Shown here in pieces: positions 13,905-21,677 of a stretch of 24,000 nt of DNA. The stretch covers positions 40,519 through 64,518 of the forward strand of contig ONEF01000015.1 in the NCBI GenBank assembly GCA_900316795.1, in the 5' to 3' direction. Made by a program: the position numbers and the translations under genes. Source of the DNA: an uncultured Bacteroidales bacterium. GTDB lineage: Bacteria; Bacteroidota; Bacteroidia; Bacteroidales; UBA932. Each line of letters begins with the position of its first letter. The first letter of the stretch is position 1. The notes under the pieces were generated by a model, which worked only from the letters and a program-made list of their open reading frames with translations, was not told the DNA's origin and did not search any database.

Positions 13905-13960
13905 CCCGCACAATCCTGGAATTGTAAAAAAATAAAGCAGTTTTTTAATGAATGTCTTGC
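13905..13960. repeat. Repeat copy A (partial, right half only)
   Basis: cccgcACAATCCTGGAATTGTAAAAAAAtaaagcagttttttAATGAATGTCTTGC. The core is shared with copies B and C. The AATGAATGTCTTGC extension is shared only with copy C. It starts 5 nt after the lipoprotein stop codon. Confidence 0.85.
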
Positions 13961-13975
13961 AGAATACAATCCATT

Positions 13976-14545
13976 TCATACCTTTGCATCAGACAATGGC
14001 GGCTGAGGATATATCTGGGGATCGTGCCCAGAGGAAGATTCCCCGGCCGCTTTATTATACAGCACCTTTTCTATCTTCCCACTGCCCAGTTTTGATATAT
14101 CGCGACCAAAGACCGTCGAAATATTAGACACCAATATATTTCGCCCTATACTATTGACATTCAAGCCAACACAAATATTCTTATCTTTAATGATTGCCGA
14201 TGTATAGACCCTAAAACTTCTGCCACTTCCACCATAACTGCATATCGCCAGTGGTTCATTGATTACTTCCATTATCTCTAACCACAACTCCTCAGAAATA
14301 CTATGAAACGCATCCTTTGAATGTCTCTTTTCAGATATAACTCTTCTGTTAGCCGTTATGGCACCGTACATTCCATATTTATTCAGAATCTTACCTGTTA
14401 CCCCTATTTTGAAATAAGCCAAAGGAAGTTTCTCTCCCCTTTTCTTTTTCTGTATAAGCTCAATAAAACCAGCAAGATCAGATCCATTTCTCTTGTCATA
14501 CTCTTGTATCTTCCTGCCTATTGGAATAAAAACTTCCATACCCAT
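13976..14545 (-). CDS. Hypothetical 189-aa protein; weak resemblance to phage/conjugative-element Barnase-EndoU-ColicinE5/D-RelE-like (PBECR) nuclease modules
   Basis: Uninterrupted ORF in an AT-rich segment with its own copy of the repeat-borne promoter. The pattern SEKRHSKDAFHSISEELWLEIMEVINEPLAI...FRVYT...ICVGLNVN...VSNISTVFGRD recalls PBECR-type domains (KRH..H, then helix, then beta-strands). This is recalled from memory and not verified. Confidence 0.5.
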   Translation of the reverse strand: MGMEVFIPIGRKIQEYDKRNGSDLAGFIELIQKKKRGEKLPLAYFKIGVTGKILNKYGMYGAITANRRVISEKRHSKDAFHSISEELWLEIMEVINEPLAICSYGGSGRSFRVYTSAIIKDKNICVGLNVNSIGRNILVSNISTVFGRDISKLGSGKIEKVLYNKAAGESSSGHDPQIYPQPPLSDAKV

Positions 14546-14562: not shown

Positions 14563-14644
14563 CAAAGCTACACCCAAAACCTACTCAGCACCAAGCCAAA
14601 CGGTAAAAATAACCCCGCACAATCCTGGAATTGTAAAAAAATGA
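14563..14644. repeat. Repeat copy B (left half plus core), carrying a minus-strand promoter for 13976-14545
   Basis: caaagctacaccc...agccaaacggtaaaaataaccccgcACAATCCTGGAATTGTAAAAAAAtga aligns along its length with copy C. On the minus strand it reads TAGCTTTG (TAnnTTTG) 17 nt before ATG 14545, with TTTG motifs upstream. Confidence 0.85.
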
Positions 14645-14670
14645 GGGGAATATAGTCAAACTTCTGACTT

Positions 14671-14706: not shown

Positions 14707-14723
14707 CCCAAAAGCGCCATCGC

Positions 14724-14765
14724 CTACTTGTACTTCTGGAAGTTATACTTTTCTCTCAGCGATGC
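14724..14765 (-). pseudogene. Duplicated 3' fragment (last 13 codons plus stop) of the small Cys-rich gene at 16086-16277
   Basis: 14723-14765 is identical to 16085-16127 (43 bp) and encodes ASLREKYNFQKYK*. Similarity continues with 2 mismatches into the 9 bp past the stop (14714-14722 vs 16076-16084). There is no start codon and no upstream coding sequence. Confidence 0.8.
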
Positions 14766-14778
14766 TGTAACACGCCCG

Positions 14779-15789
14779 TCACTTTTTGAGCTTCATCCTG
14801 ATCTGCCCCACCTCATCGGCCAACTGGACAGAAGACGGCAGATACAGCTCGTAACGGCTCGCCATAATTGTTTTGTTATCTGCCGGCAATGCCATTTTTA
14901 CTACAGTATCATTCTTGCTGGAACACAGCAGTATACCTATAGTCGGATTCTCTTCCTCCAGTTTCTCGCACCTGTCGTAATAGTTTACATACATCTGCAA
15001 CTGCCCCAAATCCTGGTGTGTGAGTTTTCCCGTCTTTAATTCCACAACCACAAAACACCTCAACAATCTGTTATACAATACCAGATCAACAAAGAACTCG
15101 TCATCCTCAAGCATTATACGCCTCTGGCGGGCAACAAACGAAAAACCTTTTCCCATTTCCAGCAAAAACTCGGTCAGATGGTCTATTATCGCACTCTCCA
15201 GATCTTTTTCATAGTACGATGGCCTTCTTTCCAACCCCAAAAACTCAAGCATCATCGGGTCTTTAATGACTTCTTGAGGGTTCTCCGGTATTCTATCACG
15301 TCTGGCGACAGCAAGAACAGACTCTTTGTCATTGCTTATAAGAAGTCTTTCATACAAGCCTGAGTAAATCTGGCGTTCAAGTTCCCTGCTGTTCCATCCA
15401 TTGTTCACTGCCTCAAGTTCGTAATACTCTCGTTTATCTTCATTGGGAATCGCTATAAGTAACTTATACTGAGTCCAATTCAATTGTGAACGCAGTGCGT
15501 GCACAATTGGATAAGTAATGAAAAACTGTCTACATAAATTCAGTTGCCTCACCCCAAATCCACTCCCATATTCCGGCTCAAGCCGCTCCGCCAACCTTTT
15601 TATCAGATAGCTCCCGTACTCGGCCCTGGCCTTCCCATGTTGCTCTTCCTCAAATATCCTGCGCCCGATATTCCAGTACATCTGAACACGGCTGAAGTTC
15701 ACGCTCCTGACGGCCCCTTCTCTAGCCTTGTCTATAATTCCCTTTATCTCCCCGATAAAACCTTCTTTCACAATCTTAAACTCATCCAT
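14779..15789 (-). CDS. DUF1016/YhcG-family PD-(D/E)XK nuclease domain protein
   Basis: 336 aa. The N-terminal part (RVQMYWNIGRRIFEEEQHGKARAEYGSYLIKRLAERL, GFGVRQLNLCRQFF) and the C-terminal nuclease core (FVDLVLYNRLLRCFVVVELKTGKLTHQDLGQLQMYVNYY) match my recollection of the family. Confidence 0.85.
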   Translation of the reverse strand: MDEFKIVKEGFIGEIKGIIDKAREGAVRSVNFSRVQMYWNIGRRIFEEEQHGKARAEYGSYLIKRLAERLEPEYGSGFGVRQLNLCRQFFITYPIVHALRSQLNWTQYKLLIAIPNEDKREYYELEAVNNGWNSRELERQIYSGLYERLLISNDKESVLAVARRDRIPENPQEVIKDPMMLEFLGLERRPSYYEKDLESAIIDHLTEFLLEMGKGFSFVARQRRIMLEDDEFFVDLVLYNRLLRCFVVVELKTGKLTHQDLGQLQMYVNYYDRCEKLEEENPTIGILLCSSKNDTVVKMALPADNKTIMASRYELYLPSSVQLADEVGQIRMKLKK

Positions 15790-15813: not shown

Positions 15814-15919
15814 CAAAGCTACACCACACAAACACCCCAAACAAGCCAAATGGTAAAATTGACCCTGTACAATCCTGGAATTGTAAAAAAATGAATCAGT
15901 TTTTAAATGAATGTCTTGC
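15814..15919. repeat. Repeat copy C (full length), carrying a minus-strand promoter for 14779-15789
   Basis: It contains both the left half shared with B and the right half shared with A. The minus strand reads TAGCTTTG 24 nt before ATG 15789. Confidence 0.85.
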
Positions 15920-16020: not shown

Positions 16021-16085
16021 TCAGGCATACTGACATTCAACTACTTACAAAGCACCATCGCCGATTAAAGTGCAAACACCATCAC

Positions 16086-16277
16086 CTACTTGTACTTCTG
16101 GAAGTTATACTTTTCTCTCAGCGATGCCTTCACATCTTCATTCTGGTGCCTGAAATACCCCTTCCATCCCGGGCAGAAATTGATATGCCATCTCCAGAAC
16201 CTTCCTATCAGAGACTTAGGGTTCTTGTCATACCTTGCCCTGAACGGACATGTCTCACAACGATACTTCTTTGCCAT
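16086..16277 (-). CDS. Small Cys/His-containing basic protein (63 aa), function unknown
   Basis: ORF MAKKYRCETCPFRARYDKNPKSLIGRFWRWHINFCPGWKGYFRHQNEDVKASLREKYNFQKYK with CxxC...H..FC, a possible metal site. Its 3' end is duplicated at 14724-14765, and a terminator-like hairpin lies downstream. Confidence 0.55.
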   Translation of the reverse strand: MAKKYRCETCPFRARYDKNPKSLIGRFWRWHINFCPGWKGYFRHQNEDVKASLREKYNFQKYK

Positions 16278-16523: not shown

Positions 16524-17303
16524 ATGGAAAATCTAACATCTATCGGTATTTCAGTGCTAGTCCTGGCTATTATTGTAATAGCTGTCACGTGGGCTATAAG
16601 AGGTATTGACTGGAAACTGATATTTAAACCCAAAGGAGAACGTGGAGAGTATTATGTCTCAAAACTGCTGAACCAGCTTCCAGAAGATCAATACCGCATC
16701 CTCAACGATATCACGATTCCAGGCAAATACAAAACATCGCAGATAGACCATATTGTCGTATCCATATATGGCATCTTTGTCATTGAAACAAAGTACTATA
16801 AGGGTTGGATTTTCGGTACTGAAGACAGTGAATACTGGACTCAGAACATATACGGATACAAGTATAGGCTGTACAATCCTATCCGCCAAAACAAAAGCCA
16901 TATCCTGGCATTGAAAAAAGCCCTTCCTGAACTTGAAGGCCTGCCTATTTTCTCAATCATAGCCTTCTCTTCTCAAGCACAGTTAGACAACAGGATTCCT
17001 TGCAGTTATGTTATTTACTGGGGCGATATTCTCCCCGCTATTACAAGCAGAAAACAAATCTCTCTTACCCAGGAGCAAGTTTCTTATCTCAGCGACAAAA
17101 TCTTATCGATTCGGCTAGATCCCGAACTAGCAAAATCCCGGCACATTAGCCAAGTCTACATAACCAAGTTTGTGAAGAATAGTAAGATACAATCTGGCAT
17201 TTGCCCTCGATGCGGAGGCAAGCTAGTCCTTAGGCATGGCAAATATGGCTCTTTCTACGGATGTTCAAACTATCCGTATTGCAAGTTCACGCTCGATACT
17301 TAA
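16524..17303 (+). CDS. Membrane-anchored NERD-domain protein with a C-terminal topoisomerase-type C4 zinc ribbon
   Basis: 259 aa taken from the internal ATG of the 452-aa track ORF. The TM helix is SIGISVLVLAIIVIAVTWAI. The NERD pattern is GERGEYYVSKLL...YRILNDITIP...SQIDHIVVSIYGIFVIETKYYKGWIFG. The Zn ribbon is CPRCGGKLVLRHGKYGSFYGCSNYPYCKFT. Confidence 0.85.
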   Translation: MENLTSIGISVLVLAIIVIAVTWAIRGIDWKLIFKPKGERGEYYVSKLLNQLPEDQYRILNDITIPGKYKTSQIDHIVVSIYGIFVIETKYYKGWIFGTEDSEYWTQNIYGYKYRLYNPIRQNKSHILALKKALPELEGLPIFSIIAFSSQAQLDNRIPCSYVIYWGDILPAITSRKQISLTQEQVSYLSDKILSIRLDPELAKSRHISQVYITKFVKNSKIQSGICPRCGGKLVLRHGKYGSFYGCSNYPYCKFTLDT

Positions 17304-17794
17304 TTATCGACGTTCTCAAGATTTGATTTACAACTAGATGTAGTTTCTTCTTGGCCTCCATACTCCTCACCGCTAATTCCCATGTCTTTGTTCTCAATAG
17401 AATCAGATTCTAACTCTTTAATAATCATTGGAAGCAATATCTCATCAGCTGGTAGCCAATTAACGCTATAGATATCATTGATTTCAAGCCATCTAGCCGC
17501 TTCGTGTTCATTTAGATGAATAGCTTCTGCCGCTAATGAACACATATAACAATGCATAATTAAATGAAACTTCGGATAATCCCACTCGACTGTATGTAGA
17601 AATTTATCTATGAGTATCTCAGTAGATAACTCTTCTCTAATCTCTCTTATTAGAGCGTCTTCGGGAGTCTCACCGAGTTCCATCTTTCCGCCAGGGAATT
17701 CCCACCAGTCTTTAAAATCACCATAACCACGCTGAGTGGCAAAAATCTCATTGTCTTTTCTAATAATTGCAGCAACTACTTCTATTGTTTTCAT
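17300..17794 (-). CDS. Nudix hydrolase (MutT/NudG-like (d)NTP pyrophosphohydrolase) with an acidic C-terminal tail
   Basis: 164 aa with an intact Nudix box GGKMELGETPEDALIREIREEL. The N-terminus VVAAIIRKDNEIFATQRG is typical of the MutT-like clade. The start overlaps the upstream helicase stop (ATGA at 17791-17794), and the stop overlaps the NERD gene stop. Confidence 0.9.
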   Translation of the reverse strand: MKTIEVVAAIIRKDNEIFATQRGYGDFKDWWEFPGGKMELGETPEDALIREIREELSTEILIDKFLHTVEWDYPKFHLIMHCYMCSLAAEAIHLNEHEAARWLEINDIYSVNWLPADEILLPMIIKELESDSIENKDMGISGEEYGGQEETTSSCKSNLENVDN

Positions 17795-20730
17795 AAAGAT
17801 TGTTCTGTTAAATATTCGTAAAGATTGCTTTCGACAGGGGTATCAAGCCTATAACCAATTTCGACAGCCGTCACGTTCTCTGTGTCATTCATTACAAATT
17901 GTTGCAAATAGCCATTATGTCTCATCGTACCAAGAAAATAAAATTCTTTAGACGTTTGATCATCCTTATTCTTCCTAACAAAAAGAGGCATTAAAATACC
18001 CCGTTCTTCACTATGGATAGCATTTTGAACATCATCAGAATCAATAGTACGCCTACTCTTTGAAATGGCTGTCAAAGAAGAAGGATCATTAAAACGGTCT
18101 TCATATCTTGTTGTAGCTGTAATATCTTCTTCTTTCTCATAATTGATAAAGACAGGATATGTTCTTGAATATGAATCGTATTTATAACCACCAATATTTA
18201 AAGAAACTTCTTCTTTCTTCCAGTTTAGAAGCCAACATACTTCCGAATAAGTATATTTCTTATAAAGTTTAAATTGAGTCCCAGCATAGCTATTCGAATA
18301 ATCTCTTTTATAACGGTAAATACCAAAATCCAACAACTCTTTAACAGCCTCATAAAAAGCTCTATTTTTAAGCGCATTTTGGAATACTTCAGAAAGCACA
18401 AAGCCATGACTTGTTGAATGAGCTAACTCAATCTTAAATCTTTCTCCACGGAAGAAGCAACCAGAAAGAACAGAAATAACACTTGCACGTACGCTACTAT
18501 CTAATTTTAAGCCATATTGCTTTTCTAATAGTGTCTCCCATAAATCAGTCAACTCAGGCTTTTCTAATAAGAATCGTAAAAGGGTTAACTCATGTATTCT
18601 CATTCCGGGAGCGAGCTTGCGGGAAATGAATTCAAGAATTTTATATTGATCTTCAGACCATTTTTCTGTAAAATCATCCTCATAATCCTTTAGAAAGGCC
18701 TGATATGAGCCCTTCTTATCTATAAGACGAAGAGGATCCAATTCTCCCATTTCATCAAACTCTTTTAAATGAGGAATTCTACCAAGTTTATATTTAAGTG
18801 ACTGATACTCTTTTCTTAGCAATTTTATTTGATTAAGATCAGCCGTATCTATAGATTTATAAATCCTATCTCTTGAAATTTCGTCAAAATAAATAGTAGA
18901 CGCTCCTCTTATAATATTATTGCCCTCCATTATTGATCGGCGAATATTATCCTTATTCCCCGTTCTATCTCCGGATAGAGCTATAGGAATCATGTAGTTA
19001 GTCTGATAATTACCAATAAAATCAAGGACTATTACGAACTCCTTCCCCTCGGCTTTTCTAAGTCCTCGACCCAACTGTTGAACAAAGATTATTGGTGATT
19101 CTGTCGGACGAAGAAGAATAACCTGATTAATTTCAGGAACATCAACGCCTTCATTAAAAATATCAACAGTAAATATATAATCTAACTTGTCTTGACGTGA
19201 ATCTGAAACCAAACGGTCTATTGCATTTTCTCTATCTTGCTGAGAGTCATCCCCAGAAAGCATAATTGTATTATAACGTCCAGTTGCATTAAACTTATTA
19301 CTAAGCTCTCTAGCTTCTTCCTTACGACTACAAAAGATTAGCCCCTTTACCCTATCACCACTATATCCATAATATTCAGCTCTTTCAATAATATATTTAA
19401 CCCTTTTGTCTGAAGTAAGATGACGGAATCGAGATAAGTCACTTATATTCTCACCCTCAATTTCTAAATCCGTTATTCCAAAGTAATGAAATGGACAAAG
19501 CATATCATTTTCCAAAGCTTGTTGAAGACGAACTTCACAAGCAATATTATGATCAAACAATTTAAAGACATCAAAGCTGTCCGTTCTTTCAGGAGATGCA
19601 GACATCCCTAAAAGCAATTCAGGGTGAAAATACCTAATTATCTTTTGGTAGCTCTCAGCTCCACTTCTATGGCATTCATCTAAAACAATTACAGAATAAT
19701 CATTTGGACTAAACTGTTCTCGGATACTGTCTTTTGCCATCATATTCATGGTAGAGAACAAAAAGGTGGATGCTCTCGCTTTATAAAGGTCATTATTTGT
19801 TCCACTAAGAAGTTCCATCTTAACATTCGCACCAAAAATACGCCTATAGCTTTTAAGAGCTTGTCTATTAATTTGTTCTCTATGAGAAAGAAATAGAGCT
19901 TTTTTACCTTTAAGAATATTATCGGCAAACAGCTTTCTAATAGCAAATGCAGAGGCATATGTTTTACCAGTACCAGTAGCTGATATTAATAATGCCCTCT
20001 TTCCTCCAGAATGAATAATTTCTTCAATGTTATATATAAAAGTCTCTTGCATTGAATTAGGTTGCAGAACTTGAGAATAGCCAAGGTCTAAGGTTCTTGT
20101 AAGCTTTGATAAGTCTTCTCTCTCAATACGGCTATTCTCATAAAGTCTTGAATATTCATCTCTGTATTCTATGTAAGATACAGATGAGTTCCAAAGATCA
20201 TTAAACTCAGACTCTATATCTTTAGCAAAAGCCCCTGCAGAAGAGGAAACTAACCTCGTATTCCACTCATGATTTTTTGTAATTGCATCCTGTGTCAAAT
20301 TTGAACTACCAACAATGATACGGATATCGTCTCCATTATGAAACATATATCCCTTTGTATGGAATCCTATATTATTCTCTCCTGTTTTAAAAACTCGAAC
20401 ATCTAAATTTGTCAGAGATGATAGCTTATCCAGTGCCTTAGGATCGCTGAACATAAGATAATCAGTTGTAAGAATGCGCCCCTTAGTTCCCTGCTTTTCT
20501 AAATCTTTAAGAGTCCCAAGTAAAGGAGCAATTCCACCCATTGTAATAAATGCAACACTTATAAACCAATCATCGCATCCCTTAAGTTCTTTTTCAATAG
20601 CAGTTAATACCTTTTTTCCATGAGAATTAGAGAGTAAGCTTGGTGAATAAGTAGGATCTGATTCACGAGTAGCATCAATGAATGCTTTGTGATATCCATC
20701 GACTAATTTACGTATAGATAGCTTTTCCAT
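17791..20730 (-). CDS. PLD-family nuclease / SF2 helicase / DUF3427 fusion protein (SauUSI-like, putative type IV modification-dependent restriction enzyme)
   Basis: 979 aa. The N-terminal HKD motif is HTKGYMFHNGD...IVGSSNLT. The helicase motifs are SATGTGKTY (I), VLDECHR (II), MSASPER (III) and QQLGRGLRK (VI). The C-terminal ~200 aa (YTYSEVCWLLNWKKEE...YPVFINYEKEEDI...YEDRF...FVRKNKDD...EFYFLG) resemble DUF3427 as I recall it. Confidence 0.85.
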   Translation of the reverse strand: MEKLSIRKLVDGYHKAFIDATRESDPTYSPSLLSNSHGKKVLTAIEKELKGCDDWFISVAFITMGGIAPLLGTLKDLEKQGTKGRILTTDYLMFSDPKALDKLSSLTNLDVRVFKTGENNIGFHTKGYMFHNGDDIRIIVGSSNLTQDAITKNHEWNTRLVSSSAGAFAKDIESEFNDLWNSSVSYIEYRDEYSRLYENSRIEREDLSKLTRTLDLGYSQVLQPNSMQETFIYNIEEIIHSGGKRALLISATGTGKTYASAFAIRKLFADNILKGKKALFLSHREQINRQALKSYRRIFGANVKMELLSGTNNDLYKARASTFLFSTMNMMAKDSIREQFSPNDYSVIVLDECHRSGAESYQKIIRYFHPELLLGMSASPERTDSFDVFKLFDHNIACEVRLQQALENDMLCPFHYFGITDLEIEGENISDLSRFRHLTSDKRVKYIIERAEYYGYSGDRVKGLIFCSRKEEARELSNKFNATGRYNTIMLSGDDSQQDRENAIDRLVSDSRQDKLDYIFTVDIFNEGVDVPEINQVILLRPTESPIIFVQQLGRGLRKAEGKEFVIVLDFIGNYQTNYMIPIALSGDRTGNKDNIRRSIMEGNNIIRGASTIYFDEISRDRIYKSIDTADLNQIKLLRKEYQSLKYKLGRIPHLKEFDEMGELDPLRLIDKKGSYQAFLKDYEDDFTEKWSEDQYKILEFISRKLAPGMRIHELTLLRFLLEKPELTDLWETLLEKQYGLKLDSSVRASVISVLSGCFFRGERFKIELAHSTSHGFVLSEVFQNALKNRAFYEAVKELLDFGIYRYKRDYSNSYAGTQFKLYKKYTYSEVCWLLNWKKEEVSLNIGGYKYDSYSRTYPVFINYEKEEDITATTRYEDRFNDPSSLTAISKSRRTIDSDDVQNAIHSEERGILMPLFVRKNKDDQTSKEFYFLGTMRHNGYLQQFVMNDTENVTAVEIGYRLDTPVESNLYEYLTEQSL

Positions 20731-20764: not shown

Positions 20765-20772
20765 CAAAAATA
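20765..20772 (-). promoter_or_regulatory. Candidate -7 box (TATTTTTG on the minus strand) for the helicase-Nudix operon
   Basis: Exact TAnnTTTG match 34 nt upstream of ATG 20730 on the minus strand. Confidence 0.35.
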
Positions 20773-21074: not shown

Positions 21075-21359
21075 ATTTGCTTTGATGGAAAGGAATTATT
21101 TAATAAAATTGTATTCAGAAAACTGTATGACAAAAGTTGAGTTTACACCTTACATCCTAAGAGAAACAGCTGATATCTATTCTTTTAGGATTGAAGGGGA
21201 ATGGAGGTATTAAGAGAACAAGGACTTACCAAGAAGATAAATGGCTAAAAGAATGTGTGGAAACTCTTCAAAAGATAGATAAAGAGTTGATGGATTTGGA
21301 AGAATGCGGTGTCGTACTGGAAGACAAAATAATGAACATTAATCTGGAATTATAGCTAT

Positions 21360-21677
21360 ATGGCCACCAAGTATGTAGATCCATTATTTGCCGAAATTCT
21401 AAAAGGCATTCCACCGCAAACTTCATATGAAGTAGGTTATTCCTATGACATAGCGACGGTTTTGCACAATGTCCTTGAAAGAAAAGGGTGGAGCCAAGTT
21501 GAGTTTGCCAGAAGACTCGGTAAGAAAGAATCTGAAATATCCAAGTGGCTTAGCGGAGTACATCCTTTCACAATGAAAACTATGGCAAAGATTTCAGCGG
21601 CCATCAACGATGACTTTCTGTGCCTTGTTTCAGATTACAGGAAAAAATTGAGGAGAAAAGCTGCTAAGCGTTTCTGA
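21360..21677 (+). CDS. XRE-family helix-turn-helix transcriptional regulator (possible antitoxin or island regulator)
   Basis: 105 aa with HTH_3 pattern LERKGWSQVEFARRLGKKESEISKWLSGVHPFTMKTMAKISAAI and a basic C-terminal tail. The 3' end overlaps the convergent glycosylase gene by 14 nt. Confidence 0.85.
   Translation: MATKYVDPLFAEILKGIPPQTSYEVGYSYDIATVLHNVLERKGWSQVEFARRLGKKESEISKWLSGVHPFTMKTMAKISAAINDDFLCLVSDYRKKLRRKAAKRF

What the first reader, a model, noticed from the sequence alone, without database searches (positions are those of the whole stretch)
17300..20730. Nudix hydrolase translationally coupled to a SauUSI-like PLD-helicase-DUF3427 enzyme: candidate two-component modification-dependent defence module
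The 979-aa protein combines an HKD/PLD nuclease motif, a complete SF2 helicase core and a C-terminal DUF3427-like region. This is the domain order of SauUSI from S. aureus, a type IV restriction enzyme that cuts 5mC/5hmC-containing DNA. Its stop codon overlaps the start of a Nudix gene with an intact catalytic box (ATGA at 17791-17794), so the two are almost certainly co-translated. The Nudix belongs, by its N-terminus and box, to the MutT/NudG-like (d)NTP pyrophosphohydrolases, and some of those hydrolyse 5-methyl-dCTP and oxidised dNTPs. The pairing suggests a function beyond plain restriction. The Nudix could sanitise modified dCTP so that host DNA never becomes a substrate, which would be a form of self-immunity. 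Alternatively it could deplete phage hm-dCTP-type pools as a second line of attack. I do not know of this pairing being characterised experimentally. The block is also much more AT-rich than its flanks, consistent with horizontal acquisition.
Basis: partly seen in the sequence, partly recalled or inferred. Interest (0 to 1): 0.72.

Follow-up and report, generated by a model that had tools for sequence, protein, structure and literature searches.

The report
SauUSI-type restriction enzyme with Nudix partner
This is an ordinary new copy, in a gut Bacteroidales genome, of a gene pair known since 2011: a restriction enzyme that cuts methylated foreign DNA next to a small nucleotide-cleaning enzyme whose role is still untested, though the evidence here points to a testable one.

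Summary
A 979-aa ORF (17791-20730, minus strand) aligns end to end with SauUSI (PDB 7CLG, E 2e-200). Its stop overlaps (ATGA) the start of a 164-aa Nudix gene (17300-17794). The block has 34-36% GC against 47-52% in the flanks.

The pairing is real but not new. Xu 2011 noted it, Monk 2012 deleted the S. aureus Nudix without losing restriction, Bell 2020 drew it, and PADLOC lists the Nudix family as candidate PDC-S07.

My survey:
- 67 of 80 SauUSI-like loci from bacteria and archaea have this Nudix immediately adjacent. Only 4 with adequate flanks lack it.
- All four gene orders and orientations occur, so translational coupling is local, not required.
- The reverse does not hold. About 40% of close Nudix relatives stand alone among mixed, often housekeeping genes.

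The best PDB match (5X1X) is the S. aureus SauUSI partner itself. The next (3GWY, B. fragilis, 41% identical) hydrolyses 5-methyl- and 5-hydroxymethyl-dCTP at about 5e6 /M/s, the nucleotide forms of the bases SauUSI recognises.

Most likely the Nudix keeps modified dCTP out of host DNA. This is inferred, not shown. The window holds a new member of a known kind.

The parts
17791..20730 (-). [quoted passage not shown]
   Evidence: ORF. Full-length match to SauUSI structure 7CLG, query 12-975 to chain 11-952, E 1.9e-200. PADLOC mREase_IV PDLC03658, 686 bits over 11-975. 120 listed homologues of 75-100% identity, nearly all 979 aa.
20191..20523 (-). PLD/HKD nuclease domain (aa 70-180); H124, K126, G141, S142, N144
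   Evidence: Pfam PLDc_2 1.2e-10. These five residues are invariant in 38 diverse homologues and, apart from one G141 exception, in 68 loci.
19057..20064 (-). SF2 DExH translocase core (ResIII aa 223-382, Helicase_C aa 461-558)
   Evidence: Pfam. Walker A G255-K256-T257, D351-E352-x-H354 and motif VI Q551-Q552-x-G554-R555-G556-x-R558 are invariant.
17806..18630 (-). DUF3427 region (aa 701-975), equal to the coupler plus SRA-like target-recognition domain of SauUSI
   Evidence: Pfam DUF3427 9.1e-78 over the whole model. Four of the six modelled 5mC-pocket residues of SauUSI are kept (Y849, F861, I862, D878). M829 corresponds to G847 and W868 to A888.
17300..17794 (-). Nudix (d)NTP pyrophosphohydrolase of the PADLOC PDC-S07 family, 164 aa (Nudix domain aa 1-130 plus a lineage-specific acidic tail of about 35 aa)
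   Evidence: Pfam NUDIX 4.5e-20. PDC-S07 155 bits over aa 1-127. 44% identical to the S. aureus SauUSI partner, which is PDB 5X1X. 41% identical to a 98%-identical relative (P0391) of the B. fragilis 5-Me/5-hm-dCTPase 3GWY.
17621..17689 (-). Nudix box (aa 36-58) with catalytic E42, R50, E51, E54, E55
   Evidence: All five residues are kept in 69 of 69 SauUSI-adjacent Nudix proteins.
17791..17794 (-). ATGA stop/start overlap of the two genes
   Evidence: Sequence. The same 4-nt overlap is seen in L001, L036, L042, L050, L058, L060, L063, L066 and L095-L097.
20765..20772 (-). Candidate Bacteroidetes-type -7 promoter element TATTTTTG (consensus TAnnTTTG), about 35 nt upstream of the ATG. This is inference only.
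   Evidence: Read from the sequence. The consensus is recalled from the Bacteroides promoter literature. The sigma-70 scan does not apply to this phylum.

Best explanation
The locus is a horizontally acquired two-gene type IV restriction module in an uncultured Bacteroidales genome.

Gene 1 is a SauUSI-family enzyme. An SRA-like C-terminal domain reads modified cytosine in DNA. That switches on a DExH translocase, and an N-terminal PLD nuclease cuts the foreign DNA. This is shown for SauUSI and inferred here from full-length homology.

Gene 2 is a small house-cleaning Nudix enzyme. It most likely hydrolyses 5-substituted dCTP (5-methyl-dCTP, 5-hydroxymethyl-dCTP) to the monophosphate plus pyrophosphate.

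Its most likely purpose is self-protection. Modified dCTP can arise from salvage of restricted methylated DNA, or be made by an infecting phage. Removing it from the replication pool stops the host chromosome from acquiring the marks its own enzyme cuts. In this reading the Nudix is the type IV counterpart of the methyltransferase in classical restriction-modification. The same activity would also deprive phages that build 5mC or 5hmC DNA of precursor.

Steps shown: domain architecture, intact motifs, near-obligate linkage and co-divergence. Steps inferred: the modification read by this enzyme, the Nudix substrate and the biological purpose.
For: Identity:
- Full-length match to 7CLG and to PADLOC mREase_IV, with catalytic motifs invariant.

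Linkage:
- 67 of 80 SauUSI-like loci (38-59% identical) have the Nudix immediately adjacent. They come from Firmicutes, Bacteroidota, Actinobacteria, Proteobacteria, Spirochaetes and four archaeal lineages.
- 9 of the 13 without it have a truncated flank; only 4 have room and lack it.
- The arrangements are 37 SauUSI>Nudix, 20 Nudix>SauUSI, 9 convergent and 1 divergent.
- Pairwise divergences of the two proteins correlate: r 0.65, reached by 0 of 2000 permutations.
- The pair sits in unrelated gene contexts at 84%/81% identity (L001) and on a mobilizable plasmid (L268).
- All five catalytic Nudix residues are kept in 69 of 69 partners.

Substrate:
- The second-best PDB relative, 3GWY (B. fragilis Q5LBB1), hydrolyses 5-Me-CTP, 5-Me-dCTP and 5-hydroxymethyl-dCTP at 4-7e6 /M/s, with much lower activity on canonical NTPs (PMC5158307). 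Its 98%-identical relative P0391 is 41% identical to the window Nudix.
- These are the triphosphates of the two bases SauUSI recognises.

Asymmetry:
- SauUSI almost always carries the Nudix. The Nudix often stands alone among mixed, often housekeeping genes. That fits a general pool-cleaning enzyme that the restriction module brings along.

Non-homologous substitution:
- A second kind of nuclease-helicase (GIY-YIG/DUF2075, PADLOC PDC-S41-like) is paired either with this same Nudix (L090, L091, L108, L115, L152) or with an unrelated MazG-like NTP pyrophosphohydrolase (L268, L270, L272, L005, L175). This points to nucleotide hydrolysis as the selected activity.
Against: - No assay exists for this Nudix or, as far as the searchable library shows, for the S. 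aureus partner.
- It scores about equally against the MutT (88.6 bits) and NudG (83.6 bits) models and passes neither cut-off, so an 8-oxo-dGTP or broader specificity is not excluded.
- The characterised B. fragilis enzyme is itself a stand-alone gene in a different subclade, which has a 3-residue insertion absent from the window clade.
- Deleting the S. aureus Nudix neither abolished restriction nor, evidently, killed the cells (Monk 2012, data not shown). Any protective role is therefore conditional.
- Four SauUSI-like loci do without an adjacent Nudix or any substitute.
- Whether host kinases make enough 5-methyl-dCTP from salvaged 5-methyl-dCMP is unknown.
- The window enzyme has Ala where SauUSI has the modelled stacking residue W868, so its target modification is not certain.
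Confidence: 0.45

Rival explanations
1. Offensive arm. The Nudix is a second anti-phage effector. It hydrolyses the modified dCTP (5hm-dCTP, 5m-dCTP) that cytosine-substituting phages must accumulate. This stalls their replication or forces them to incorporate plain C, while SauUSI cuts whatever modified DNA is made.
For: It relies on the same inferred substrate as the main explanation. PADLOC lists the family as a single-gene defence candidate, PDC-S07. Defence by nucleotide depletion is an established principle (dCTP deaminase and dGTPase systems; recalled from the literature, not checked here). The Nudix also sits in a Vibrio defence island between hsdR and mcrBC (L090).
Against: Stand-alone copies lie among mixed, often ordinary metabolic genes (GH95, M32 peptidase, YaaA, aldo-keto reductase) rather than in defence islands. 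If the Nudix were an independent effector, there would be no reason for it to be almost obligatorily linked to SauUSI (94%) while SauUSI is dispensable to it. The S. aureus deletion had no effect on the plasmid barrier, although phages were not tested.
Confidence: 0.2
2. Generic antimutator or repair helper. The Nudix is a MutT-like sanitiser of oxidised or otherwise damaged dNTPs (8-oxo-dGTP, 2-OH-dATP). It limits mutagenic repair synthesis after restriction-associated DNA breaks, or it simply hitch-hikes with the mobile module.
For: The best NCBIfam match is the MutT model. Database sources name relatives '8-oxo-dGTP diphosphatase'. A close relative (83% identical, P0070) follows a DNA-alkylation-repair gene instead of SauUSI.
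Against: It fails the MutT equivalog cut-off (88.6 against 97.9 bits). Hitch-hiking cannot explain 94% adjacency in four different arrangements across bacterial and archaeal phyla, with co-divergence. The nearest characterised relative is specific for 5-substituted cytosine nucleotides.
Confidence: 0.12
3. Regulator of the enzyme. The Nudix acts on a nucleotide cofactor or signal. It might trim ATP/dATP or remove pyrophosphate as Xu et al. speculated, destroy an inhibitory nucleotide, or process a nucleic-acid 5' end. Alternatively it binds SauUSI physically to restrain it.
For: Xu 2011 proposed a link to ATP/dATP hydrolysis. Tight coupling (overlaps of 4 to about 14 nt) is common. In one locus the Nudix is fused to a SIR2-like domain (L037), which hints at NAD-type chemistry in at least that variant.
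Against: SF2 translocases release ADP and phosphate, not pyrophosphate (established enzymology). Purified SauUSI works alone in vitro, by the abstracts of PMC3141236 and PMC7913695. No Nudix-SauUSI fusion was found among six unusually long homologues. Nine convergent and one divergent arrangement argue against a need for stoichiometric co-production. Substitution by MazG-like enzymes in the sister modules argues for (d)NTP hydrolysis.
Confidence: 0.1

Closest known systems
SauUSI of Staphylococcus aureus with its neighbour gene SAUSA300_2432 (Nudix, WP_000755954.1, PDB 5X1X)
   Same: The three-part enzyme is the same (PLD nuclease, DExH translocase, coupler plus SRA-like reader) and aligns over its whole length. 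The partner is a homologous Nudix: 44% identical and in the same PADLOC family. The two genes are tightly packed in both organisms.
   Different: Gene order is reversed. In S. aureus the Nudix is upstream, 2 nt before the sauUSI ATG. Here it is downstream with a 4-nt overlap. The large proteins are distant: SauUSI-like proteins from other Bacilli in the survey are 38-40% identical to the window protein. Two of the six modelled 5mC-pocket residues differ (M829 to G, W868 to A). The window Nudix has an extra acidic tail of about 35 aa. The host is a Gram-negative gut anaerobe.
Bacteroides fragilis Q5LBB1 (PDB 3GWY), a 5-substituted (d)CTP pyrophosphohydrolase
   Same: It belongs to the same Nudix family: its 98%-identical relative P0391 scores 141.9 bits on PDC-S07 and is 41% identical to the window Nudix. 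It has the same catalytic box and the same family motifs (R22, EFPGGK, Y73, W102, W113, D117).
   Different: It is a stand-alone gene with no SauUSI nearby. It belongs to a different subclade and carries a 3-residue insertion before the EFPGGK motif. Its activity has been measured; that of the window protein has not.
E. coli NudG (Orf135) and mycobacterial MutT2
   Same: Both are small MutT-like Nudix enzymes. NudG prefers 5-methyl-dCTP over CTP (table quoted), and both appear among the PDB matches of the window Nudix (2RRK and 5ZRC).
   Different: They are much more distant (57-59 bits against 85-92 bits for 3GWY and 5X1X). The window protein fails the NudG equivalog cut-off (83.6 against 156 bits). 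Neither is known to be linked to a restriction enzyme.
PADLOC candidates PDC-S07 and PDC-S41
   Same: The window Nudix is a full-length PDC-S07 member. PDC-S07 Nudix genes also sit directly next to PDC-S41 (DUF2075/SLFN-g3 helicase) genes.
   Different: PADLOC treats PDC-S07 as a single-gene candidate. Here it is one half of a two-gene unit whose other half is already classed as a type IV enzyme.
Methyltransferase of classical restriction-modification systems (functional analogy only)
   Same: In the favoured model both protect host DNA from the cognate nuclease, and both travel with it.
   Different: The chemistry is opposite. The methyltransferase adds a mark to DNA. The Nudix would prevent a mark from entering DNA by acting on the free nucleotide. 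The two are not homologous.

Membership tests
SauUSI-type type IV restriction enzyme | N-terminal PLD-family nuclease with an HxK...GSxN motif | tested here: met
   PLDc_2 1.2e-10 over aa 70-180. H124, K126, G141, S142 and N144 are present and invariant in 38 homologues.
SauUSI-type type IV restriction enzyme | Central SF2 DExH ATPase/translocase with all core motifs | tested here: met
   ResIII 2.6e-34 and Helicase_C 1.6e-13. Walker A, DEAH and motif VI are invariant.
SauUSI-type type IV restriction enzyme | C-terminal coupler plus SRA-like target-recognition domain (DUF3427), collinear with SauUSI | tested here: met
   DUF3427 9.1e-78 over model positions 1-280. A single alignment to 7CLG covers query 12-975 and chain 11-952.
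SauUSI-type type IV restriction enzyme | 5-methylcytosine pocket residues modelled for SauUSI (M829, Y831, F841, I842, D858, W868) | tested here: inconclusive
   Y849, F861, I862 and D878 are kept; G847 and A888 replace M829 and W868. The W868 position is W in about half and A in about 45% of the family, and A in all 120 close homologues. The SauUSI pocket is itself a model, not a DNA complex.
SauUSI-type type IV restriction enzyme | ATP-dependent cleavage of DNA containing 5mC or 5hmC, and not of unmodified DNA | not testable with these tools
   This needs purified protein and modified substrates.
Nudix hydrolase, MutT/NudG-like (PADLOC PDC-S07 family) | Nudix fold and box with the catalytic glutamates and arginine | tested here: met
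   NUDIX 4.5e-20. E42, R50, E51, E54 and E55 are present and kept in 69 of 69 partners.
Nudix hydrolase, MutT/NudG-like (PADLOC PDC-S07 family) | Full-length match to the PDC-S07 profile | tested here: met
   1.6e-46, 155.3 bits, aa 1-127 against profile 3-131 of 135. The S. aureus partner scores 183.6 bits.
MutT (8-oxo-dGTP diphosphatase) equivalog | Score at or above the NCBIfam TIGR00586 cut-off (97.9 bits) | tested here: not met
   88.6 bits.
NudG (pyrimidine (d)NTP diphosphatase) equivalog | Score at or above the NCBIfam NF007834 cut-off (156 bits) | tested here: not met
   83.6 bits.
5-substituted (d)CTP pyrophosphohydrolase (as B. fragilis Q5LBB1) | High kcat/Km for 5-methyl- and 5-hydroxymethyl-dCTP and low kcat/Km for canonical NTPs | not testable with these tools
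   Only homology is available: 41% identity to P0391, a 98%-identical relative of 3GWY, and 85 bits to the 3GWY chain. The activity data are for Q5LBB1 alone.
SauUSI-Nudix two-gene module | Nudix of this family immediately adjacent to the SauUSI-like gene | tested here: met
   There is a 4-nt overlap in the window. 67 of 80 surveyed loci show adjacency, which is 67 of 71 with adequate flanks.
SauUSI-Nudix two-gene module | Nudix needed for restriction or for tolerance of the enzyme | not testable with these tools
   The literature reports that the S. aureus deletion kept the restriction barrier (data not shown). Tolerance under modified-nucleotide load has never been tested.

The most novel reading that the evidence does not exclude
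Small NTP pyrophosphohydrolases may be the immunity partners of modification-dependent nuclease-helicases in general. SauUSI-type enzymes carry a PDC-S07 Nudix. GIY-YIG/DUF2075 (PDC-S41-like) nuclease-helicases carry either the same Nudix or an unrelated MazG-like enzyme. In each case the hydrolase would remove the modified dNTP whose incorporation would turn the host chromosome into a substrate. That would define a 'restriction-sanitation' logic parallel to restriction-modification. It would also predict the modification each enzyme reads from the specificity of its hydrolase.
Probability: 0.35. Interest if true: 0.72.

Novelty: new member of a known kind. Interest (0 to 1): 0.42.

Why it matters
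Type IV enzymes have no methyltransferase. How cells avoid cutting themselves has been explained only by the absence of the target mark. A near-obligate pyrophosphohydrolase partner suggests that this absence is actively enforced at the level of the nucleotide pool.

If so, it would explain a 15-year-old unexplained gene linkage next to the main transformation barrier of S. aureus. It would give PADLOC's candidate PDC-S07 a role. It would also predict a conditional weakness: Nudix loss plus a supply of modified nucleoside could be lethal to SauUSI+ strains.

All the pieces for a test exist: the 5X1X structure, a published substrate library and assay, and an existing S. aureus deletion strain.

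The window itself adds only one more ordinary example, in Bacteroidales.

Tried and rejected
- Natural Nudix-SauUSI fusions. Six unusually long homologues (P0250, P0257, P0259, P0294, P0312, P0376) and a long flavobacterial form (L068) hold no Nudix domain.
- A substitute pyrophosphatase in the four Nudix-less loci (L015, L035, L052, L057). The neighbours are NYN/OST-HTH, DUF3881, glutamate dehydrogenase, a methyltransferase, MFS, LysR and LuxR.
- An empty insertion site, sought to prove acquisition. Every contig carrying the exact AlkZ-like neighbour also carries the module, so the case for horizontal origin rests on GC content and on the pair occurring in unrelated contexts.
- Flanking repeats or a tRNA as integration marks. 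No tRNA was found. The only inverted pair spanning the block (17064/21946, 22 nt, 82%) looks like chance.
- Whether the B. fragilis enzyme with measured activity is itself SauUSI-linked. It is not.
- Whether the Nudix clade is context-specific. It is not.
Both types have it.
- A publication on 5X1X, or on DUF2075 together with a pyrophosphohydrolase. None is in the searchable library.
- The sigma-70 promoter scan. It is not informative for Bacteroidetes and was disregarded.

Full report
OBSERVATION

The window holds a 979-aa ORF at 17791..20730 and a 164-aa ORF at 17300..17794, both on the minus strand. On that strand the junction reads ...CAA TCT TTA TGA AAA ACA..., so the stop of the first gene and the ATG of the second share ATGA at 17791-17794.

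Pfam finds these domains in the large protein:
- PLDc_2, aa 70-180, 1.2e-10
- ResIII, aa 223-382, 2.6e-34
- Helicase_C, aa 461-558, 1.6e-13
- DUF3427, aa 701-975, 9.1e-78

The small protein matches NUDIX (4.5e-20) and NUDIX_4 (1e-14).

GC falls to 0.335-0.36 between 17.5 and 21 kb. It is 0.47-0.52 before about 11 kb and after 21.5 kb.

WHAT THE LARGE PROTEIN IS

It aligns in one piece (residues 12-975) with the crystal-structure sequence of SauUSI (7CLG chain residues 11-952, E 1.9e-200). It matches PADLOC's type IV model PDLC03658 at 686 bits over its whole length.

In an alignment of 38 homologues of 33-58% identity, these residues are invariant:
- the HKD residues H124, K126, G141, S142 and N144
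- Walker A G255-K256-T257
- D351-E352-x-H354
- motif VI

Tumuluri et al. 2021 (PMC7913695) modelled the 5mC pocket of SauUSI as M829, Y831, F841, I842, D858 and W868. The window protein keeps Y849, F861, I862 and D878. It has G847 and A888 at the other two positions.

The W868 position is dimorphic across the family. It is W in about half, A in about 45%, and A in all 120 close homologues. Membership in the SauUSI family is therefore solid. The exact modification it reads is inferred.

WHAT THE SMALL PROTEIN IS

It is a single-domain MutT/NudG-like Nudix with E42, R50, E51, E54 and E55 intact.
- It falls below the NCBIfam cut-offs for both MutT (88.6 against 97.9 bits) and NudG (83.6 against 156 bits).
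- It matches PADLOC's candidate PDC-S07 over its full Nudix domain (155 bits).
- Residues 131-164 form an acidic tail found only in this lineage.

Its best solved relative is 5X1X (E 3e-25). I found that 5X1X is identical, 119 of 119 residues, to the S. aureus protein WP_000755954.1. That gene ends 2 nt before the sauUSI start codon. Its flanks match the deletion primers of Monk et al.. So the closest structure is the SauUSI partner itself, 44% identical to the window protein.

The next relative is 3GWY, B. fragilis Q5LBB1; its 98%-identical relative P0391 is 41% identical to the window protein. Nguyen et al. 2016 (PMC5158307) screened it against 74 substrates. It hydrolyses three at 4-7e6 /M/s: 5-Me-CTP, 5-Me-dCTP and 5-hydroxymethyl-dCTP. 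Cleavage is at the alpha-beta bond, and activity on canonical NTPs is much lower.

IS THE PAIRING KNOWN?

Yes.
- Xu et al. 2011 (PMC3141236) reported that a conserved MutT/Nudix gene is linked to sauUSI. They counted at least 60 SauUSI-like enzymes so linked and called the function unknown.
- Monk et al. 2012 (PMC3312211) deleted the gene in strain Newman. [quoted passage not shown]
- Bell et al. 2020 (PMC7641849) drew MutT homologues beside SauUSI homologues in Streptococcus.
- No paper in the searchable library combines SauUSI with Nudix beyond the three found (Xu 2011, Monk 2012 and an eLife 2020 survey that mentions the two separately). None connects it to 5-methyl-dCTP.

HOW STRONG IS THE LINKAGE?

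I scanned one genome per species with a profile of 38 SauUSI-like proteins. That gave 80 loci of 38-59% identity. They come from these groups:
- Lachnospiraceae, Erysipelotrichaceae, Veillonella and Bacilli
- Bacteroidota
- Collinsella
- Sutterella and Succinatimonas
- Treponemataceae
- Methanobrevibacter, Methanosarcinaceae, Methanolobus and Bathyarchaeota

A search of all ORFs with the window Nudix found a homologue directly beside the SauUSI-like gene in 67 loci, and nowhere else in the flanks. Of the 13 loci without one, 9 have under 500 bp of flank on one side. Only L015, L035, L052 and L057 have room and lack it, and their neighbours offer no substitute.

The arrangements are:
- 37 with SauUSI then Nudix, seven of them with the same 4-nt overlap
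- 20 with Nudix then SauUSI, as in S. aureus
- 9 convergent (Collinsella, some Bacillaceae, S. suis)
- 1 divergent

Pairwise divergences of the two proteins correlate (r 0.65; 0 of 2000 permutations reach this). The pair recurs at 84%/81% identity in a wholly different neighbourhood (L001). It also occurs next to relaxase and TraG genes (L089) and on a mobilizable Lactiplantibacillus plasmid (L268).

The linkage is therefore functional. It does not depend on operon structure or on translational coupling.

IS THE NUDIX CLADE SPECIFIC TO THIS CONTEXT?

No. I examined 80 metagenome loci carrying a Nudix 50-79% identical to the window's:
- 36 have a SauUSI-like gene beside or near it, and two more have a DUF3427 fragment
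- 3 have a PDC-S41-type helicase
- 26 have at least 500 bp on both sides and have neither; the neighbours of the Nudix-only loci are heterogeneous, with many ordinary metabolic genes such as GH95, M32 peptidase, YaaA and aldo-keto reductase and a few defence-like ones

A relative 83% identical follows a DNA-alkylation-repair gene (L098-L100). The B. fragilis/Parabacteroides enzyme and its sister group are stand-alone.

So P(Nudix given SauUSI) is about 0.94, while P(SauUSI given Nudix) is about 0.55. In a neighbour-joining tree the window Nudix falls in a large clade of SauUSI partners. The flavobacterial and archaeal partners interleave with stand-alone and PDC-S41-linked members.

A SECOND, PARALLEL PAIRING

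The same Nudix family sits directly beside DUF2075/SLFN-g3 helicases, which are PADLOC PDC-S41. Both gene orders occur: L090 in a Vibrio island between hsdR and mcrBC, and L091, L108, L115 and L152.

Related GIY-YIG-DUF2075 proteins are instead paired with an unrelated MazG-like NTP pyrophosphohydrolase. Both orders occur again, in 3 of 5 plasmid loci sampled (L268, L270, L272).

In L005, L175 and L268 the SauUSI-Nudix pair and a MazG-like-DUF2075 pair lie side by side. In L081 a DUF2075 helicase lies just upstream of the Nudix-SauUSI pair.

Two non-homologous hydrolase folds occupy the same position. That argues the selected property is nucleotide hydrolysis.

MECHANISM

Three things are shown: an intact SauUSI-type enzyme, an intact Nudix of the partner family, and near-obligate, co-diverging linkage. 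What follows is inferred.

SauUSI recognises 5mC and 5hmC in DNA. The nearest characterised relative of the partner hydrolyses exactly 5-methyl- and 5-hydroxymethyl-dCTP. A cell that degrades methylated DNA, or that is infected by a phage making such nucleotides, risks incorporating them into its own chromosome and so creating targets for its own enzyme.

A pyrophosphohydrolase that removes them would act as the immunity component. This explains three things:
- SauUSI nearly always brings the Nudix along.
- The Nudix is also useful on its own as a house-cleaner.
- Deleting it is harmless under laboratory conditions.

I put this at about 0.45. The rivals are an offensive role in depleting phage precursors (0.2), a generic antimutator or repair helper (0.12) and a regulator of the enzyme (0.1).

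The main weakness is that no partner Nudix has been assayed. The sequence is also equidistant from MutT and NudG.

CONTEXT IN THE WINDOW

The organism is an uncultured Bacteroidales bacterium, going by the names on neighbouring proteins. The window corresponds to an ENA contig of 68 kb.

The module sits in a stretch of defence-type and mobile-element genes:
- a MuF_C-like fragment (13976-14545)
- YhcG/DUF1016 nuclease, PADLOC PDC-S02 (14779-15789)
- NERD plus a topoisomerase-type zinc ribbon (about 16524-17303)
- the pair itself
- an HTH_3 gene (21360-21677)

This stretch lies between ordinary STAS/HSP20 genes and AlkZ-like/peptide deformylase genes.

VERDICT

The thing is a new member of a known, repeatedly noted but functionally unexplained gene pair.

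- numbers for the linkage and its asymmetry
- the identification of 5X1X as the S. aureus partner
- the connection to measured 5-substituted-dCTPase activity
- the parallel MazG-like/DUF2075 modules

Interest is moderate (0.42). It rests on an old open question becoming directly testable, not on anything unusual in this window.

Noticed in passing
L090:4501-6687, L091:4501-6902, L108, L115, L152: The same PDC-S07 Nudix family sits directly beside (1-nt gap or 4-nt overlap, both gene orders) a DUF2075/SLFN-g3 helicase protein of 595-665 aa that matches PADLOC candidate PDC-S41. In Vibrio sp. RE86 this lies between hsdR and mcrBC.
   Followed up: partly
L268:5356-7436, L270:1501-3554, L272:923-3081, L005:4161-6409, L175:5210-7435: GIY-YIG-DUF2075 nuclease-helicases are paired with a small MazG-like NTP pyrophosphohydrolase (PF12643) in both gene orders. 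In L005, L175 and L268 this pair lies right next to a SauUSI-Nudix pair; in L081 a DUF2075 helicase lies just upstream of the Nudix-SauUSI pair. No paper in the searchable library mentions DUF2075 together with a pyrophosphohydrolase.
   Followed up: partly
L267:2571-2963 (S. aureus strain 333, NZ_CP077890.1): PDB entry 5X1X ('Mutator mutT protein') is 119/119 identical to the Nudix encoded immediately upstream of sauUSI. A structure of the SauUSI partner therefore already exists, apparently without that context being noted.
   Followed up: yes
L037:6976-8343: Downstream of a SauUSI-like gene, the partner Nudix is fused to a C-terminal SIR2_2 (SIR2-like) domain, giving a 455-aa protein.
   Followed up: no
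window 18067-18069 (A888) and homologues: The position of SauUSI W868, modelled to stack on the flipped 5mC, is dimorphic in the family: W in about 50%, A in about 45%. The window and all 120 close homologues have Ala, which may mean two reader specificities. Both types keep the Nudix partner.
   Followed up: partly
L102:6527-9521: In another sample of the same locus the SauUSI gene is split into 701-aa and 270-aa ORFs while the Nudix stays intact. This is a natural knock-out of the restriction enzyme, as in S. aureus RN4220.
   Followed up: no
window 13905-13960, 14614-14669, 15864-15919; 14712-14772, 16074-16134: A 56-nt direct repeat occurs in three copies (the 15864 copy is 91% and the 14614 copy 63% identical to the reference) and a 61-nt repeat in two copies (90%). 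They bracket the MuF_C-like and YhcG/DUF1016 genes like cassette boundaries. They do not flank the SauUSI-Nudix pair.
   Followed up: no
window 21127-21355 (+): Two short ORFs (28 and 54 aa, in different frames) lie just upstream of the HTH_3 gene at 21360-21677, which matches PADLOC PDC-M64B/C. They may be the frameshifted remnant of a partner gene.
   Followed up: no
window 17300-17401 and 17300-17303: The Nudix carries an acidic C-terminal tail of about 35 aa that relatives outside its own small cluster lack. Its stop codon overlaps the stop codon of the convergent NERD/zinc-ribbon gene.
   Followed up: partly
L098:3225-4387, L099, L100: A Nudix 83% identical to the window's follows a DNA_alkylation (PF08713) repair gene by 5 nt, with no SauUSI. 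Even close relatives are found detached from the restriction enzyme.
   Followed up: partly
L068:3989-7450 (also L070, L072, L080): Flavobacterial SauUSI-like proteins are about 1150 aa. Their C-terminal extension gives a weak Peptidase_S24-like hit (4e-4).
   Followed up: no
L187, L192, L193, L196-L198 (IMG/VR contigs): Divergent SauUSI-like genes followed by the Nudix occur on contigs classed as viral. Many other phage contigs carry a more distant MutT-like Nudix alone.
   Followed up: no
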